A DNA stretch of 4,127 nucleotides from a virus (taxonomy: Duplodnaviria; Heunggongvirae; Uroviricota; Caudoviricetes). Below are positions 1 to 4,127 of this stretch, in pieces. Under the pieces are notes generated by a model. It was not told the DNA's origin and ran no database searches. It worked only from the letters and a program-made list of their open reading frames with translations. The stretch spans positions 1 to 4,127 of IMG/VR virus record IMGVR_UViG_2562617057_000001. One strand, given 5' to 3'. The first letter of the stretch is position 1. The number at the start of each line of letters is the position of its first letter. The position numbers and the translations under genes are program-made.

Positions 1-746
1 ACCGGGATTTTTCCACTGTGCCGCTTCTGTGCGAAGGGGTTGTTCATGCCGTTAACCGATGAGAGATCGATACGACATCGGGTTGTCTGGGAAAGCGCGG
101 CATCAATAAGTAATGGTCGCTGGAGAAAAGCAGCCTCATCCACAAGATAAAGGGTCGTACGGTCACCACGACCGATATTATCGCCAGCCTCACCTTTGAT
201 AACCGCGCCAGTTTCAGGAAACTCAACACGCATATATGGCGCGTGCTTCTTCTCGCTCCACGAACCGCGAAACTCTACAGGTAGTGTTTCCACGAACTTG
301 CGCGCCTTCCAGAACAATGCTTTCGGGTCACCGGTGCTGTCGACGTATTCCTCTTTACGGGAGCCGAAACCGATAACCATTTCTTTGTTGAAGAGACAAA
401 GCGAGCAGGCCAGTCCGATCGCGGTCCAACTGAGCCCCATTTCACGGGATTTATCGGTAATACCATTCTCCCGATTGCTCCAGCGTTCCATAATCCAGTG
501 GATCCACTCCTCCTGCTTAGGGAAGAGTAAAAACGGAATGGTCACCGGCAGGCCATAATCAATATTACGCGGGTCCGTTGTCATGCCCCAGTCGATGATG
601 AACTGAGCCGGATTGGTACGGTAAAACTGTTTTAGTGCAGGCAATATTTCAGGATTCTGGCGAATGCGCTGTAGGCGTTCCATCCGCCATTCAAAAACCA
701 TCTGGTAATCAGGATGTTTAAAATCGAAGGGGAATGGTAACGGCAT
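1..746 (-). CDS. terL: Phage terminase large subunit, N-terminal ATPase portion (partial; 3' end lies beyond window start; codon-aligned 3..746)
   Basis: Not in the ORF track because it has no stop in the window. I translated the minus strand by hand: ATG at 746..744, 248 sense codons with no stop down to position 3 ([20 protein letters not shown]...[11 protein letters not shown]...LYLVDEAAF...[13 protein letters not shown]). Deviant Walker A-like KSREMGLS (approx 432..452) resembles lambda gpA KSARVGYS; Walker B-like LYLVDEAAF at 126..152. Start lies 2 nt after the terS stop (TAA 751..749), the canonical terS-terL coupling. Confidence 0.8.
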
Positions 747-748
747 AC

Positions 749-1303
749 TTAGCCCATCATTTTTCTATACACCTCTGCGGCCTGCTCAGGCGTTAATTTG
801 GTAATTTCTGTTCTGACTGGTCCTCCGTCAGCGCCAGTCACTTCATTTTTGACGTTGTCTTTAAACGCCTGAACAGAAACATGGCGCCCAAGCAACTCAA
901 GGTTTTTAACCTTATCAGGCCATTTGATTTTCTTCAGAAGTGCGGCGCTATCTGCGGATACCATCTCCACGACATCCATTCCTGATAGCGTTGTGCGCCA
1001 TACCTTAGGCCAGTCTTTAATGGGCTTTAGCTCACCGTTTTGCAGGAGAATGTCGAGCACATCCATCTGGTCGATTTCAACCAATCTACGAAGAACATAA
1101 GCGGCATCTATACCTACCTCTTCGTTTCGCTCGGCTTTAAGCTCAGCAATGCGCTTTGCGATATTAGCTTTTATTAGGTTTTTGCATCCTTGTACGGCGG
1201 CAGAATCCTCACTGTAACCCGCCCTGATGGCTGCTTGCGTGGCATTGAGATCTTTCAGGTACTCACGGGCAAACAGCTCTTGTTTGTCGGTGAGCTTTGC
1301 CAT
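749..1303 (-). CDS. terS: Phage terminase small subunit (Terminase_2-type, N-terminal HTH)
   Basis: 184-aa ORF. N-terminus [40 protein letters not shown] matches the conserved terminase small-subunit signature as I recall it (KQExFxxEYlxdxNAtqAaxrAGYS). GGAG Shine-Dalgarno at 1312..1315 (minus strand), 8 nt upstream of ATG 1303. Sits immediately upstream of terL. Confidence 0.85.
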
Positions 1304-1351: not shown

Positions 1352-1376
1352 TGAACCGCCCCGGGAATCCTGGAGA
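1352..1376 (+). repeat. IS left inverted repeat (IRL)
   Basis: TGAACCGCCCCGGGAATCCTGGAGA. The reverse complement of 2637..2661 is TGAACCGCCCCGGGTTTCCTGGAGA, giving 23/25 matches (mismatches at positions 15 and 16). Confidence 0.85.
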
Positions 1377-1405
1377 CTAAACTTCCTGAGAAAGAGGTAA
1401 ACAGG

Positions 1406-1732
1406 ATGACTAAAAATACTCGTTTTTCCCCCGAAGTCCGTCAACGGGCAGTCCGTATGGTTCTGGAAAGTCAGGGCGAATATGACTCACAATGGGCGAC
1501 AATTTGTTCCATTGCTCCAAAGATTGGCTGTACGCCGGAGACTCTGCGTGTCTGGGTTCGCCAGCATGAGCGGGATACCGGGGGCGGTGATGGAGGGCTC
1601 ACCACCGCTGAACGTCAGCGTCTGAAAGAGCTGGAGCGTGAAAATCGTGAACTGCGCCGCAGTAACGATATCCTTCGCCAGGCTTCCGCTTATTTTGCGA
1701 AGGCGGAGTTCGACCGCCTCTGGAAAAAATGA
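1406..1732 (+). CDS. IS3-family transposase OrfA (HTH/leucine-zipper DNA-binding subunit)
   Basis: 108-aa ORF. AGAGG Shine-Dalgarno at 1393..1397, 8 nt before the ATG. Ends WKK* on the A6 run. Heptad-like [20 protein letters not shown] is typical of IS3 OrfA. Confidence 0.9.
1724..1732 (+). promoter_or_regulatory. Putative programmed -1 ribosomal frameshift site (A6 run; orfA stop overlaps orfB ATG)
   Basis: AAAAAA at 1724..1729 occupies the last two Lys codons of orfA. TGA stop at 1730..1732 overlaps ATG 1729..1731 of orfB, which is in the -1 frame. IS3-family elements make an OrfAB fusion transposase by -1 slippage on A-rich heptamers (established for IS911, IS3, IS150). Confidence 0.6.
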
Positions 1733-2619
1733 TGCCACTGCTGGATAAGCTGCGTGAGCAGTACGGGGTCGGACCGCTATGCAGCGAACTGCATATTGCC
1801 CCGTCAACGTATTACCACTGTCAGCAACAGCGACATCATCCGGATAAACGCAGTGCCCGTGCGCAGCGCGATGACTGGCTGAAGAAAGAGATACAGCGCG
1901 TATACGATGAAAATCACAAGGTATACGGTGTGCGTAAAGTCTGGCGTCAGTTGTTACGGGAAGGCATCAGAGTGGCCAGATGCACTGTGGCACGTCTCAT
2001 GGCGGTTATGGGACTTGCCGGTGTTCTCCGGGGTAAAAAGGTCCGTACGACCATCAGCCGGAAAGCCGTTGCCGCAGGCGACCGCGTAAACCGTCAGTTC
2101 GTGGCAGAACGACCTGACCAGCTGTGGGTGGCTGATTTTACTTACGTCAGCACATGGCAGGGCTTCGTCTATGTGGCGTTCATCATTGATGTGTTTGCCG
2201 GATACATCGTGGGGTGGCGGGTCTCATCGTCCATGGAAACGACATTCGTGCTGGATGCACTGGAGCAGGCGTTATGGGCCCGTCGACCGTCCGGCACGGT
2301 CCATCACAGTGATAAAGGTTCTCAGTATGTATCGCTGGCCTACACACAGCGGCTTAAGGAAGCCGGATTACTGGCATCAACAGGAAGTACAGGCGACTCG
2401 TATGACAACGCGATGGCGGAGAGCATCAATGGTCTTTACAAAGCGGAGGTAATACACCGTAAGAGCTGGAAAAACCGTGCAGAAGTGGAACTGGCCACAC
2501 TCACGTGGGTGGACTGGTATAACAATCGACGATTGCTGGAAAGGCTGGGCCATACTCCTCCGGCAGAAGCAGAAAAAGCTTATTATGCTTCCATCGGAAA
2601 CGATGATCTGGCAGCCTGA
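1729..2619 (+). CDS. IS3-family transposase OrfB (DDE integrase/rve catalytic domain)
   Basis: 296-aa ORF in the -1 frame relative to orfA. Catalytic triad read from the translation: D136 (WVADFTY), D195 (HHSDKGSQY), E231 ([12 protein letters not shown]), spacing D-59-D-36-E, the classic DD(35)E pattern. Confidence 0.9.
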
Positions 2620-2636
2620 GTTCACAGATAAAACAC

Positions 2637-2661
2637 TCTCCAGGAAACCCGGGGCGGTTCA
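2637..2661 (-). repeat. IS right inverted repeat (IRR)
   Basis: Reverse complement matches IRL at 23/25 positions; the element ends ...GGTTCA at 2661. Confidence 0.85.
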
Positions 2662-2664
2662 TCC
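2662..2664. repeat. Target-site duplication (TCC), right flank of IS copy 1
   Basis: TCC directly abutting the IS right end, matching TCC at 1349..1351. Confidence 0.7.
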
Positions 2665-2739
2665 CGTGTAGGGTATAAGCCATTATCAAGCCCACCCGTA
2701 GATAGGCTTTGTAATGAAGAGCCGTTGTGAAAGTAGCTC

Positions 2740-2952
2740 TCAGGTTGTCATTTTTTCCCTTTTCTGCCTACCTGCCCACTGTTTTGCAATGTACAGGCAG
2801 TCATCGAAAACTCGGCCTTTTCTGCTGGCTTGTGAACAACGGCGGTAATGCTCCACCGCCATGTCAGCGCCAGTCATAGCCGCGTTCTGGTCGTACCCAA
2901 GCTTTATTAACTCGGTTGTTACATTTTTATGTATGAAATCAATCGGAGTCAT
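2740..2952 (-). CDS. Hypothetical small protein (70 aa), translationally coupled to the upstream Rha-like gene
   Basis: ATG 2952..2950 overlaps the TGA stop (2951..2949) of the upstream ORF, an ATGA overlap. Same strand as the phage genes. I recognise no motif. Only a weak Shine-Dalgarno, so expression probably relies on coupling. Confidence 0.5.
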   Translation of the reverse strand: MTPIDFIHKNVTTELIKLGYDQNAAMTGADMAVEHYRRCSQASRKGRVFDDCLYIAKQWAGRQKREKMTT

Positions 2953-3386
2953 GCTGGTTTACCATCAGAGAAATCCCCCATGTCACATAGCTTGAACTGA
3001 ATCAGATCCTTCACAAGCTGCTCAGCCTTTTTAATGGCCTTCTTCTCTTTCTTCCGACGAGTCATGAGAGCGCTACCTGCTTGACCGTGCATTTCAAATG
3101 AGAACTTCTCAGCAGCCGCGACACGGTTTTGCATTTCGCTGATTGCCATATCGGTCAGGCCAGAGAAATCGAGGAGGTTAATGTCCTTCCCGCCCTCAAG
3201 CTCCGTCATGTGGTCATACACCTGCGCCTGAAGCTCATAGCTGTAGCTCATTGCCATGAGGCAAGCTTCACGCTTGGGAAAATTGCAAATATCCCTCTCC
3301 ACAACACCACCTGTTCCGTTGATATAGGTATCAGTTGCAAAAAATTTTGCAGCTGCATCCCCGAGGACCCTGGGTACTTTCTTCAT
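2949..3386 (-). CDS. Putative phage regulatory/antirepressor-like protein (Rha/Bro-N-like region); possibly the 3' remnant of a gene interrupted by IS copy 2
   Basis: 145-aa ORF from the first ATG. The segment PKREACLMAMSYSYELQAQVYDH resembles the conserved core of Rha/Bro-N/KilA-N-type phage regulator domains (recollection, low certainty). The frame stays open for 33 more codons upstream until it hits the IS junction at 3480/3481, and there is no clear Shine-Dalgarno before ATG 3386. Confidence 0.5.
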   Translation of the reverse strand: MKKVPRVLGDAAAKFFATDTYINGTGGVVERDICNFPKREACLMAMSYSYELQAQVYDHMTELEGGKDINLLDFSGLTDMAISEMQNRVAAAEKFSFEMHGQAGSALMTRRKKEKKAIKKAEQLVKDLIQFKLCDMGDFSDGKPA

Positions 3387-3480
3387 GAAACTGCGGTGTT
3401 CGAGTTTGCGATATTTCTTACAGGGGAACGCAAGCCCCTCCGCCTCCGCTTTGGATTTCCGATCAGCATTAATGTAATCC

Positions 3481-3505
3481 TGAACCGCCCCGGGAATCCT
3501 GGAGA
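3481..3505 (+). repeat. IRL of IS copy 2
   Basis: Identical to 1352..1376. Confidence 0.85.
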
Positions 3506-3534
3506 CTAAACTTCCTGAGAAAGAGGTAAACAGG

Positions 3535-3861
3535 ATGACTAAAAATACTCGTTTTTCCCCCGAAGTCCGTCAACGGGCAGTCCGTATGGTTCTGGAAAGT
3601 CAGGGCGAATATGACTCACAATGGGCGACAATTTGTTCCATTGCTCCAAAGATTGGCTGTACGCCGGAGACTCTGCGTGTCTGGGTTCGCCAGCATGAGC
3701 GGGATACCGGGGGCGGTGATGGAGGGCTCACCACCGCTGAACGTCAGCGTCTGAAAGAGCTGGAGCGTGAAAATCGTGAACTGCGCCGCAGTAACGATAT
3801 CCTTCGCCAGGCTTCCGCTTATTTTGCGAAGGCGGAGTTCGACCGCCTCTGGAAAAAATGA
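3535..3861 (+). CDS. IS3-family transposase OrfA (copy 2)
   Basis: 108-aa product identical to the 1406..1732 product. Confidence 0.9.
3853..3861 (+). promoter_or_regulatory. Putative -1 frameshift site (copy 2)
   Basis: Same A6 run and ATGA overlap as copy 1. Confidence 0.6.
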
Positions 3862-4127
3862 TGCCACTGCTGGATAAGCTGCGTGAGCAGTACGGGGTCG
3901 GACCGCTATGCAGCGAACTGCATATTGCCCCGTCAACGTATTACCACTGTCAGCAACAGCGACATCATCCGGATAAACGCAGTGCCCGTGCGCAGCGCGA
4001 TGACTGGCTGAAGAAAGAGATACAGCGCGTATACGATGAAAATCACAAGGTATACGGTGTGCGTAAAGTCTGGCGTCAGTTGTTACGGGAAGGCATCAGA
4101 GTGGCCAGATGCACTGTGGCACGTCTC
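3858..4127 (+). CDS. IS3-family transposase OrfB (copy 2), N-terminal 90 codons only; continues beyond window
   Basis: In frame with ATG 3858 to the last base of the window ([11 protein letters not shown]...TVARL); identical to the copy 1 orfB 5' region. Confidence 0.85.

What the first reader, a model, noticed from the sequence alone, without database searches (positions are those of the whole stretch)
2740..2952. 70-aa orphan ORF with ATGA stop/start overlap
MTPIDFIHKNVTTELIKLGYDQNAAMTGADMAVEHYRRCSQASRKGRVFDDCLYIAKQWAGRQKREKMTT has no motif I can recognise, yet it is arranged for translational coupling to the upstream gene, which argues that it is a real gene and not a chance ORF. It has a basic C-terminus and two Cys. 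Small coupled proteins next to phage regulators are frequent places for uncharacterised modulators.
Basis: seen in the sequence. Interest (0 to 1): 0.4.

Follow-up and report, generated by a model that had tools for sequence, protein, structure and literature searches.

The report
Conserved small phage gene coupled to Rha
The 70-codon ORF is a real, widely conserved phage gene of unknown function (not an orphan) whose start overlaps the stop of a Rha/Bro-type regulator gene in many prophages; here it sits intact but stranded between two insertion sequences.

Summary
The ORF (2740-2952, minus strand) and its ATGA overlap with the upstream gene are exactly as described. It is not an orphan. It matches PHROG 4439 (E 1e-34), has about 100 clusters of relatives at 50% identity, and evolves under strong purifying selection (median dN/dS 0.09). 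AlphaFold2 gives a three-helix bundle with a basic tail (pLDDT 83).

In 53 of 76 loci found from the small gene, and 59 of 72 found from the partner, its ATG overlaps by 4 nt the stop of a roughly 200-aa protein. That protein has a Rha-like or BRO-N N-domain and a shared C-terminal domain. This is a conserved two-gene cassette between the lysis and terminase genes.

Other family members sit between cII and replication gene O. Of 27 long-tailed ones, 19 end in a beta-clamp-binding-like motif (QxGLF-COOH). The window protein lacks that motif.

Function is unknown. The best guess is a small partner or adaptor of the Rha/Bro protein acting on phage DNA transactions.

In this window the partner is truncated by an IS629-like element, so the cassette is probably defunct. 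Interest is modest.

The parts
2740..2952 (-). 70-aa gene, a member of PHROG 4439. It encodes a three-helix bundle (helices 3-17, 22-39, 48-69) with a Lys/Arg-rich C-terminal tail.
   Evidence: ORF. PHROG 4439 match with E 1.3e-34 over 1-69 of 74 profile positions. AlphaFold2 pLDDT 83, pTM 0.69. Median dN/dS 0.09. Exact sequence deposited in NCBI as a hypothetical protein.
2949..2952 (-). ATGA start/stop overlap: the ATG of the small gene and the TGA of the Rha-family gene.
   Evidence: Read directly from the sequence. The same -4 overlap occurs in 53 of 76 and 59 of 72 related loci. Of 70 unique start contexts, 68 read [AG]TGA.
2953..2970 (-). The last codons of the partner (..DFSDGKPA), which double as the ribosome-binding region of the small gene. 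The Shine-Dalgarno match is weak here (GATGGTAAACCAGC); relatives carry GGAGAG.
   Evidence: Upstream contexts are listed. An SD-like motif at -16..-5 occurs in 55 of 68 unique overlapping contexts.
2949..3480 (-). Rha-family partner gene, truncated at the 5' end. 176 codons remain, the frame is open to the IS junction, and the first in-frame ATG is at 3386. The intact protein is 198 aa.
   Evidence: Frame translation. Intact 198-aa homologues named 'Rha family transcriptional regulator', some with Pfam PF09669. PHROG 63 'anti-repressor Ant' E 8.6e-8. AlphaFold2 model.
2949..3218 (-). C-terminal domain of the partner (last ~89 aa). It is shared by Rha-type and BRO-N-type partners and ends in the conserved tail [ST]Q[LF]x[LI]..G.F.
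   Evidence: Alignment A4, with S40, G45, G48, S49, R55 and Q74 invariant. Partner sets. In the model it forms two long helices of pLDDT 45-60, and the tail 162-176 is below 50.
1352..2661 (+). IS3-family (IS629-like) insertion sequence, copy 1. It is 1310 bp with 25-nt inverted repeats and a 3-bp target duplication TCC, and it is inserted between the small gene and terS.
   Evidence: Inverted repeats I1. HTH_Tnp_1 and rve Pfam hits. ALIL frameshift pseudoknot at 1687-1803. Flanks read.
3481..4127 (+). Second copy of the same IS, in direct orientation and running off the window. It is inserted into the 5' part of the Rha-family gene.
   Evidence: Direct repeat D1 and inverted repeat I2. ALIL pseudoknot at 3816-3932.
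2662..2739 (-). Conserved non-coding segment downstream of the small gene. It belongs to the region upstream of terS and is split by IS copy 1.
   Evidence: 93-100% identical in 45 phage records and 580 E. coli genomes. The intact version folds with z = -5.8.
749..1303 (-). Terminase small subunit, the next gene of the late operon in intact prophages.
   Evidence: Pfam Terminase_2 E 3.5e-37. Gene order confirmed.

Best explanation
The ORF is a genuine protein-coding gene of a conserved phage family (PHROG 4439). It encodes an ~8-kDa three-helix bundle followed by a Lys/Arg-rich tail.

Shown:
- In lambdoid prophages it is the distal gene of a two-gene cassette placed between the lysis genes and the terminase genes.
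- Its ATG overlaps the TGA of a ~200-aa protein that carries a Rha-like or BRO-N DNA-binding N-domain and a shared helical C-domain.
- In relatives the partner's last codons supply the Shine-Dalgarno sequence.

Inferred:
- Ribosomes finishing the partner re-initiate on the small gene, so the two proteins are made together.
- The small protein works as a partner or adaptor of the Rha/Bro protein's C-domain, which is poorly ordered on its own.
- The pair acts on DNA-bound machinery (replication or transcription) rather than on the virion or lysis.
- That direction is suggested by relatives outside the cassette. They sit between cII and replication gene O, and most long-tailed ones end in a beta-sliding-clamp-binding-like motif (QxGLF-COOH). 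Some lie next to a clamp-like gene.

In this window the cassette is a remnant. One IS629-like copy removed the partner's 5' end and its upstream transcription, and a second copy cuts the cassette off from terS. The small gene is intact but probably poorly expressed.
For: Real gene:
- PHROG 4439 match, E 1.3e-34.
- 111 phage records by tblastn.
- 100 clusters at 50% identity with E <= 1e-3 in the exhaustive search.
- Median dN/dS 0.09; for example 32 synonymous against 13 non-synonymous differences between the window allele and L024.
- Confident AlphaFold2 fold, pLDDT 83.

Cassette and coupling:
- -4 overlap in 53 of 76 loci and 59 of 72 loci found independently from the partner C-domain.
- The same arrangement in Erwinia phage Midgardsormr38, ORF91/ORF92, and behind a BRO-N protein in E. 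coli cM8a.
- SD-like motif in 55 of 68 overlapping contexts.
- The cassette sits upstream of three different terminase types.

Partner C-domain:
- Shared by the Rha and BRO-N types.
- Low-confidence helical hairpin with a disordered tail when modelled alone.

Link to DNA machinery:
- cro-cII-[small gene]-O-helicase order.
- 19 of 27 long-tailed cluster representatives end [GSAT][LM][FL]-COOH, against 1 of 58 short-tailed ones and 7 of 891 background ORFs. Compare the consensus QL[SD]LF and phage Mu C in PMC12867686.
- A clamp-like gene lies directly downstream in T1-like phages.

Remnant status.
Against: - No experiment or complex prediction supports binding to the partner.
- Divergence of the small gene tracks the partner's C-domain only weakly (Mantel r 0.31, against 0.85 between the two partner domains). 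This argues against a tightly co-evolved interface.
- Many family members have no Rha/Bro partner at all, so the core must have a partner-independent activity.
- The window protein itself has no clamp-binding-like motif.
- The clamp-like neighbour is absent in Salmonella phage ST44 and Klebsiella phage VLCpiS13e.
- Pfam, NCBIfam and PADLOC give no informative hit.
Confidence: 0.45

Rival explanations
1. Stand-alone small nucleic-acid-binding or machinery-binding protein. The three-helix core plus basic tail acts on its own, on DNA, RNA or a host protein such as the sliding clamp. The overlap with Rha/Bro genes is only an expression device that fixes timing and dose, with no physical complex.
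For: - The family occurs without a Rha/Bro partner next to cII/O and in lytic phages.
- Co-variation with the partner is weak (r 0.31).
- The basic tail is conserved family-wide.
- Long-tailed members carry their own clamp-binding-like motif.
Against: - The -4 overlap is kept in 59 of 72 partner-seeded loci, even at 26-36% partner identity, and despite recombination between the two genes.
- The small gene is tied to the partner's shared C-domain, not to either N-domain.
- That C-domain is poorly ordered alone.
Confidence: 0.27
2. Minimal sigma-region-2-like factor. The bundle docks on the RNA polymerase beta' clamp helices as sigma region 2 does. In long-tailed relatives it is tethered to the sliding clamp, in the manner of T4 gp55, and so modulates phage transcription.
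For: - ECF sigma factors recur in Foldseek against PDB (TMq up to 0.71) and against BFVD.
- Relatives carry clamp-binding-like tails.
- Precedents exist for clamp-dependent phage transcription (PMC12867686).
Against: - hhalign of the family profile against an RpoE sigma2 alignment gives probability 0.4%, no better than a reversed-sequence control. That sigma2 profile was narrow (Neff 2.5).
- No Sigma70_r2 hit for any of 55 members or in the PDB sequence search.
- No Foldseek hit below E = 1.
- Three-helix bundles are a generic fold.
Confidence: 0.08
3. Two-gene toxin-antitoxin, abortive-infection or anti-defence 'moron'. A DNA-binding protein and a small overlapping downstream gene in a prophage would act on the host or on competing phages rather than in the phage's own cycle.
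For: - The architecture resembles TA loci: a DNA-binding gene followed by a small gene with a 4-nt overlap.
- The cassette moves as a mosaic unit between prophages with different terminases.
- It sits at a classic moron position, between the lysis and packaging genes.
Against: - No PADLOC hit for either protein.
- The small protein occurs alone in early operons and in strictly lytic phages.
- No promoter-like site of its own was found in the intact locus.
- No toxin-like fold was found.
Confidence: 0.1
4. Chance ORF, not translated.
For: - PGAP leaves it unannotated in some RefSeq genomes.
- The Shine-Dalgarno match in the window allele is weak.
- The window contains many spurious ORFs of similar size.
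Against: - dN/dS of about 0.09 with saturated synonymous sites.
- Conservation at 40-50% amino-acid identity across genera, with start and length preserved.
- Confident predicted fold.
- The one frameshifted copy lies in a prophage whose Rha gene is also frameshifted.
Confidence: 0.02

Closest known systems
PHROG 4439 (phage protein family, unknown function)
   Same: Full-length HMM match (E 1.3e-34). The cII-adjacent long-tailed relatives and the 57-aa version in T1-like phages match the same PHROG.
   Different: Nothing. This is the family it belongs to. The family carries no functional annotation, and every source calls its members 'hypothetical protein'.
Clamp-binding phage transcription factors: Mu C/Mor (QHDLF, QPDLF) and T4 gp55/gp33 with gp45
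   Different: The window protein lacks the motif, and clamp binding is untested for any member. There is no sequence relation to Mor/C or gp55. The relatives sit in early (cII-O) operons rather than being late activators.
Sigma-70 family region 2 (Pfam PF04542)
   Different: No sequence or profile similarity. There is no region 4. The protein is about 62 structured residues only.
Rha (P22/phi80 'rha') and BRO-N/antirepressor-type phage regulators
   Same: The upstream, translationally coupled gene is a Rha-family protein (PGAP name; PF09669 in close relatives) or, in other loci, a Bro-N protein (PF02498, E 6.5e-8).
   Different: The finding is the small downstream gene, not the regulator. The shared C-terminal domain of these partners matches no Pfam or NCBIfam model.
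Ribosome modulation factor (Pfam PF04957)
   Same: Weak local match, E 0.027 and 15 bits, residues 29-56.
   Different: The score is below the gathering cut-off (27.9), and only 2 of 55 family members show it. Treated as chance.

Membership tests
PHROG 4439 | Significant full-length match to the family HMM | tested here: met
   E 1.3e-34, 119 bits, residues 1-69 against profile positions 1-69 of 74. Relatives from other contexts hit the same PHROG.
Translationally coupled gene pair | The start codon of the distal gene overlaps or abuts the stop codon of the proximal gene on the same strand, and the arrangement is conserved in homologues | tested here: met
   ATGA at 2949-2952. -4 overlap in 53 of 76 and 59 of 72 loci. 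Actual re-initiation cannot be tested here.
Protein-coding gene under selection | Excess of synonymous over non-synonymous change, with the reading frame preserved in homologues | tested here: met
   Median dN/dS 0.09 over 130 pairs. The only frameshifts seen are in decaying copies L006 and L056.
Beta-clamp-binding proteins (CBM QL[SD]LF) | A terminal or exposed pentapeptide close to QL[SD]LF | tested here: not met
   The window protein ends ..RQKREKMTT and close relatives end ..KQKGKK. The motif is present in 19 of 27 long-tailed relatives.
Beta-clamp-binding proteins (CBM QL[SD]LF) | Physical binding to DnaN | not testable with these tools
   Needs two-hybrid, pull-down or multimer modelling.
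Sigma-70 region 2 (PF04542) | Sequence or profile similarity to region 2 | tested here: not met
   No Pfam hit in 55 members. hhalign probability 0.4%, equal to the reversed control. No hit in the PDB sequence search.
Sigma-70 region 2 (PF04542) | Region-2 fold | tested here: inconclusive
Ribosome modulation factor (PF04957) | Score above the Pfam gathering threshold | tested here: not met
   15 bits against a cut-off of 27.9, and only 2 of 55 members match.
Known anti-phage defence or TA components (PADLOC) | Match to a defence-system model | tested here: not met
   No hit for the small protein or the Rha partner.

The most novel reading that the evidence does not exclude
PHROG 4439 proteins are a previously unrecognised class of small phage factors that work at the host sliding clamp. 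Early-operon members would bind DnaN directly through a C-terminal QxGLF motif. The Rha/Bro-coupled members, including this one, would be brought to DNA or the clamp through the partner, whose conserved tail (invariant Q, QLxLPGF in one clade) itself resembles a clamp-binding motif. The sigma2-like bundle would then contact RNA polymerase or replication proteins. This would give lambdoid phages a clamp-linked regulatory step analogous to T4 gp55/gp45 and Mu C.
Probability: 0.12. Interest if true: 0.7.

Novelty: new member of a known kind. Interest (0 to 1): 0.33.

Why it matters
On its own the finding adds little. The exact protein is already deposited in hundreds of genomes as 'hypothetical', and this copy lies in an IS-riddled prophage remnant.

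What the follow-up adds is a testable frame for an uncharacterised but widespread phage family:
- an obligate-looking two-gene cassette with Rha/BRO-N regulators, whose own late-operon role has never been explained;
- a sister group next to the replication genes that carries what looks like a sliding-clamp-binding tail.

If clamp binding were confirmed, clamp use by phage regulators, recently shown for Mu and long known for T4, would extend to lambdoid phages. The analysis also flags a gene that PGAP annotates inconsistently.

Tried and rejected
- **Ribosome modulation factor (Pfam RMF):** rejected. The match is sub-threshold and appears in only 2 of 55 members.
- **Sigma region 2 homology:** not supported by sequence. 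hhalign gave 0.4%, the same as the reversed control, and there were no HMM hits. Kept only as a fold-level resemblance.
- **PPR-protein hits in the PDB sequence search:** each matched stretch had E > 200, so they are chance.
- **Zinc or disulphide role for the two Cys:** rejected, because C39 is not conserved.
- **Tool limits:** the afdb50 fold library was unavailable. The search for related loci with the diverse alignments A2 and A4 failed for lack of a conserved stretch, so closer queries were used instead.
- **Source of the window:** a search for the Rha/IS junction in complete E. coli genomes found nothing. The window is probably from Shigella, given.
- **Own transcription unit:** no promoter of its own was found for the cassette.
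- **Literature:** searches found no paper on this small protein.
- **Clamp-like neighbour as a universal feature:** rejected.

Full report
**Observation.** The window carries phage genes on the minus strand. These are the start of a large terminase (1-752), a Terminase_2 small subunit (749-1303), the 70-aa ORF (2740-2952) and a Rha-like ORF ending at 2949.

The minus-strand ATGA at 2949-2952 joins the stop of the Rha-like ORF to the start of the small ORF.

Two copies of a 1310-bp IS3-family, IS629-like element lie in direct orientation at 1352-2661 and from 3481 onwards. They have 25-nt inverted repeats, a 3-bp TCC target duplication and Rfam ALIL frameshift pseudoknots.

The second copy cuts the Rha-like gene. 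Its frame is open right up to the IS end, leaving 176 of 198 codons. The first copy separates the small gene from terS.

The ORF alone is not beyond chance, because the window has 47 ORFs of at least 30 aa and several are clearly spurious.

**Is it a gene?** Yes.
- It matches PHROG 4439 over its full length (E 1.3e-34).
- tblastn finds it in 111 phage records from Erwinia, Proteus, Yersinia, Serratia, Klebsiella, Salmonella, Vibrio and other phages, all below 60% identity.
- An exhaustive profile search finds 100 clusters at 50% identity, nearly all stand-alone proteins of 50-100 aa.
- Nei-Gojobori comparison of 40 distinct alleles gives a median dN/dS of 0.09. Synonymous sites are saturated in most pairs; for example there are 32 synonymous against 13 non-synonymous differences to L024.
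- The only disrupted copies lie in decaying prophages. In STEC299 the Rha gene is frameshifted too.
- The identical 70-aa sequence is deposited as 'hypothetical protein [Shigella flexneri]' on 211 contigs.
- The Rha/IS junction is absent from all 5,426 complete E. coli genomes, so the window is probably from Shigella.
- PGAP annotates the gene inconsistently (against 16, 17).

**Anatomy of the protein.** AlphaFold2 with 21 sequences gives a three-helix bundle (helices 3-17, 22-39, 48-69) at pLDDT 83 and pTM 0.69.

Family-wide conserved positions are M-x-P-x-x-F-I-x-x-N, L15, G19-Y/F20, Y36-x-R38, K45-G46 and F-D-D-C-L, followed by a Lys/Arg-rich tail. C39 is not conserved.

No Pfam, NCBIfam or PADLOC model matches. 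The weak RMF hit is chance (2 of 55 members).

**The cassette.**
- In 53 of 76 loci retrieved with the small protein, its ATG overlaps by 4 nt the stop of a 190-230-aa ORF.
- These partners have either a Rha-like N-domain or a BRO-N domain (PF02498). They share one C-terminal domain of about 85 aa that ends in a conserved tail with an invariant Gln..[ST]Q[LF]x[LI]P[DG].G.F...
- Searching in the other direction, from three partner C-domains, 59 of 72 loci carry the small gene at exactly -4. These include partners only 26-36% identical.
- The partner's last codons (GGAGAGCCAGC-ATGA in most relatives) provide an SD-like element in 55 of 68 unique contexts. The window allele has a weaker one.
- The cassette always sits after holin-lysozyme-Rz and before terS, but in front of three different terminase types. 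It therefore moves as a mosaic unit.
- No promoter of its own was detected. A terminator-like hairpin lies upstream of the cassette.
- Modelled alone, the partner has a confident winged-helix-like N-domain. Its C-domain is a low-confidence helical hairpin with a disordered tail, as expected for a region that needs a binding partner.
- However, divergence of the small gene correlates only weakly with that of the partner C-domain (Mantel r 0.31), while the two partner domains correlate at 0.85. The small gene has therefore been reshuffled relative to its partner.

**Other contexts of the family.** In many temperate phages the gene lies in the early-right operon, in the order cI / cro - cII - [small gene] - replication protein O - helicase.

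These versions are often 80-90 aa long. Of 27 long-tailed cluster representatives, 19 end in [GSAT][LM][FL]-COOH (QQGLF, QAGLF, RPSLF, QGSLL and similar) after a basic linker. The same ending occurs in 1 of 58 short-tailed members and 7 of 891 background ORFs.

This resembles the bacterial beta-clamp-binding consensus QL[SD]LF and the QHDLF/QPDLF motifs through which phage Mu C uses the clamp for late transcription (PMC12867686).

In T1-like Klebsiella, Escherichia and Salmonella phages a 57-aa version lies directly upstream of, and overlapping, a 192-aa beta-clamp-like gene. That gene has sub-threshold Pfam DNA_pol3_beta_2/3 hits and matches PHROG 947 'processivity factor' at E 3e-11. It is often mislabelled RusA-like. 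The adjacency is not universal.

Profile-profile comparison with an RpoE region-2 alignment gives 0.4% probability, the same as a reversed-sequence control. No HMM search finds sigma factors. I therefore treat this as a resemblance of fold, not as membership.

**Interpretation.**
- Shown: a real, conserved gene, a conserved 4-nt overlap with Rha/BRO-N proteins that share a C-domain, and a three-helix bundle with a basic tail.
- Inferred, with moderate confidence: translational coupling delivers the small protein together with the partner, and the two act together on DNA-associated processes.
- Speculative: a link to the sliding clamp, to RNA polymerase, or to both.

The window copy lacks the clamp-like motif. 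It belongs to a cassette crippled by two IS insertions, so here it is most likely a silent remnant.

**Verdict.** This is an ordinary, already catalogued phage gene of unknown function. Interest is modest. The family-level clamp-motif observation is the only lead worth an experiment.

Noticed in passing
window 2662-2739 and 1304-1351 (intact version L002:4956-5085, minus strand): The non-coding segment between the small gene and terS is 93-100% identical in 45 phage records (Stx phages, P22-like Salmonella phages) and 580 E. coli genomes, although the flanking genes differ. It folds far better than shuffled controls, z = -5.8. No Rfam family matches. IS copy 1 is inserted into it.
   Followed up: partly
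window 1352-2661 and 3481-4127: Two directly repeated IS629-like (IS3-family) copies bracket an 819-bp piece of prophage, which looks like a composite transposon. Copy 1 has a TCC target duplication. Both copies carry the ALIL programmed-frameshift pseudoknot, at 1687-1803 and 3816-3932.
   Followed up: partly
L086:2632-3210 (Klebsiella phage vB_Kpn_ZC2) and 286 phage records: PHROG 3007, widely annotated 'RusA-like Holliday junction resolvase', looks like a two-domain beta-clamp-like protein. It has sub-threshold Pfam DNA_pol3_beta_2/3 hits and matches PHROG 947 'processivity factor' at E 3e-11. The RusA label is probably an annotation error that has been propagated.
   Followed up: partly
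L001:6079-6291 and L002:5079-5291: RefSeq/PGAP leaves the 70-aa gene unannotated in E. coli CFSAN029787 and RMDEC465, but calls the 67-aa allele (WP_000187850.1) in other genomes. Some depositors call a 45-aa version from an internal Met (P0023).
   Followed up: yes
window 2958-2960 (codon in the partner tail): The window's Rha-family protein ends DFSDGKPA, where every relative examined has DFPDGKPA or a similar tail with Pro. This is a Pro-to-Ser change in the conserved tail of an already truncated gene.
   Followed up: no
partner C-termini in L057-L071, L095-L102: One clade of partners ends ..SQLxLPGF.., which is close to hexapeptide clamp-binding motifs such as Hda's QLSLPL (recalled from memory, not checked here). 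The Gln is invariant across all partner C-domains. Whether this is a clamp-binding motif or the docking site for the small protein is unknown.
   Followed up: partly
L006 (E. coli STEC299) and L056: These are decaying copies. In STEC299 both the small gene and the Rha gene are frameshifted. L056 has a frameshifted small gene read through to 97 aa.
   Followed up: yes
L002:10702-10786: A C4 antisense RNA (the P1/P7-type immunity RNA that controls antirepressor expression) lies next to KilAC/P22AR-type antirepressor genes in the related intact prophage. It is not in the window.
   Followed up: no
window 3-752 (minus strand): The N-terminal 250 residues of the large terminase give no Pfam hit. 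The full 539-aa protein is also without a Pfam family in the precomputed tables, although PGAP names it TerL.
   Followed up: no
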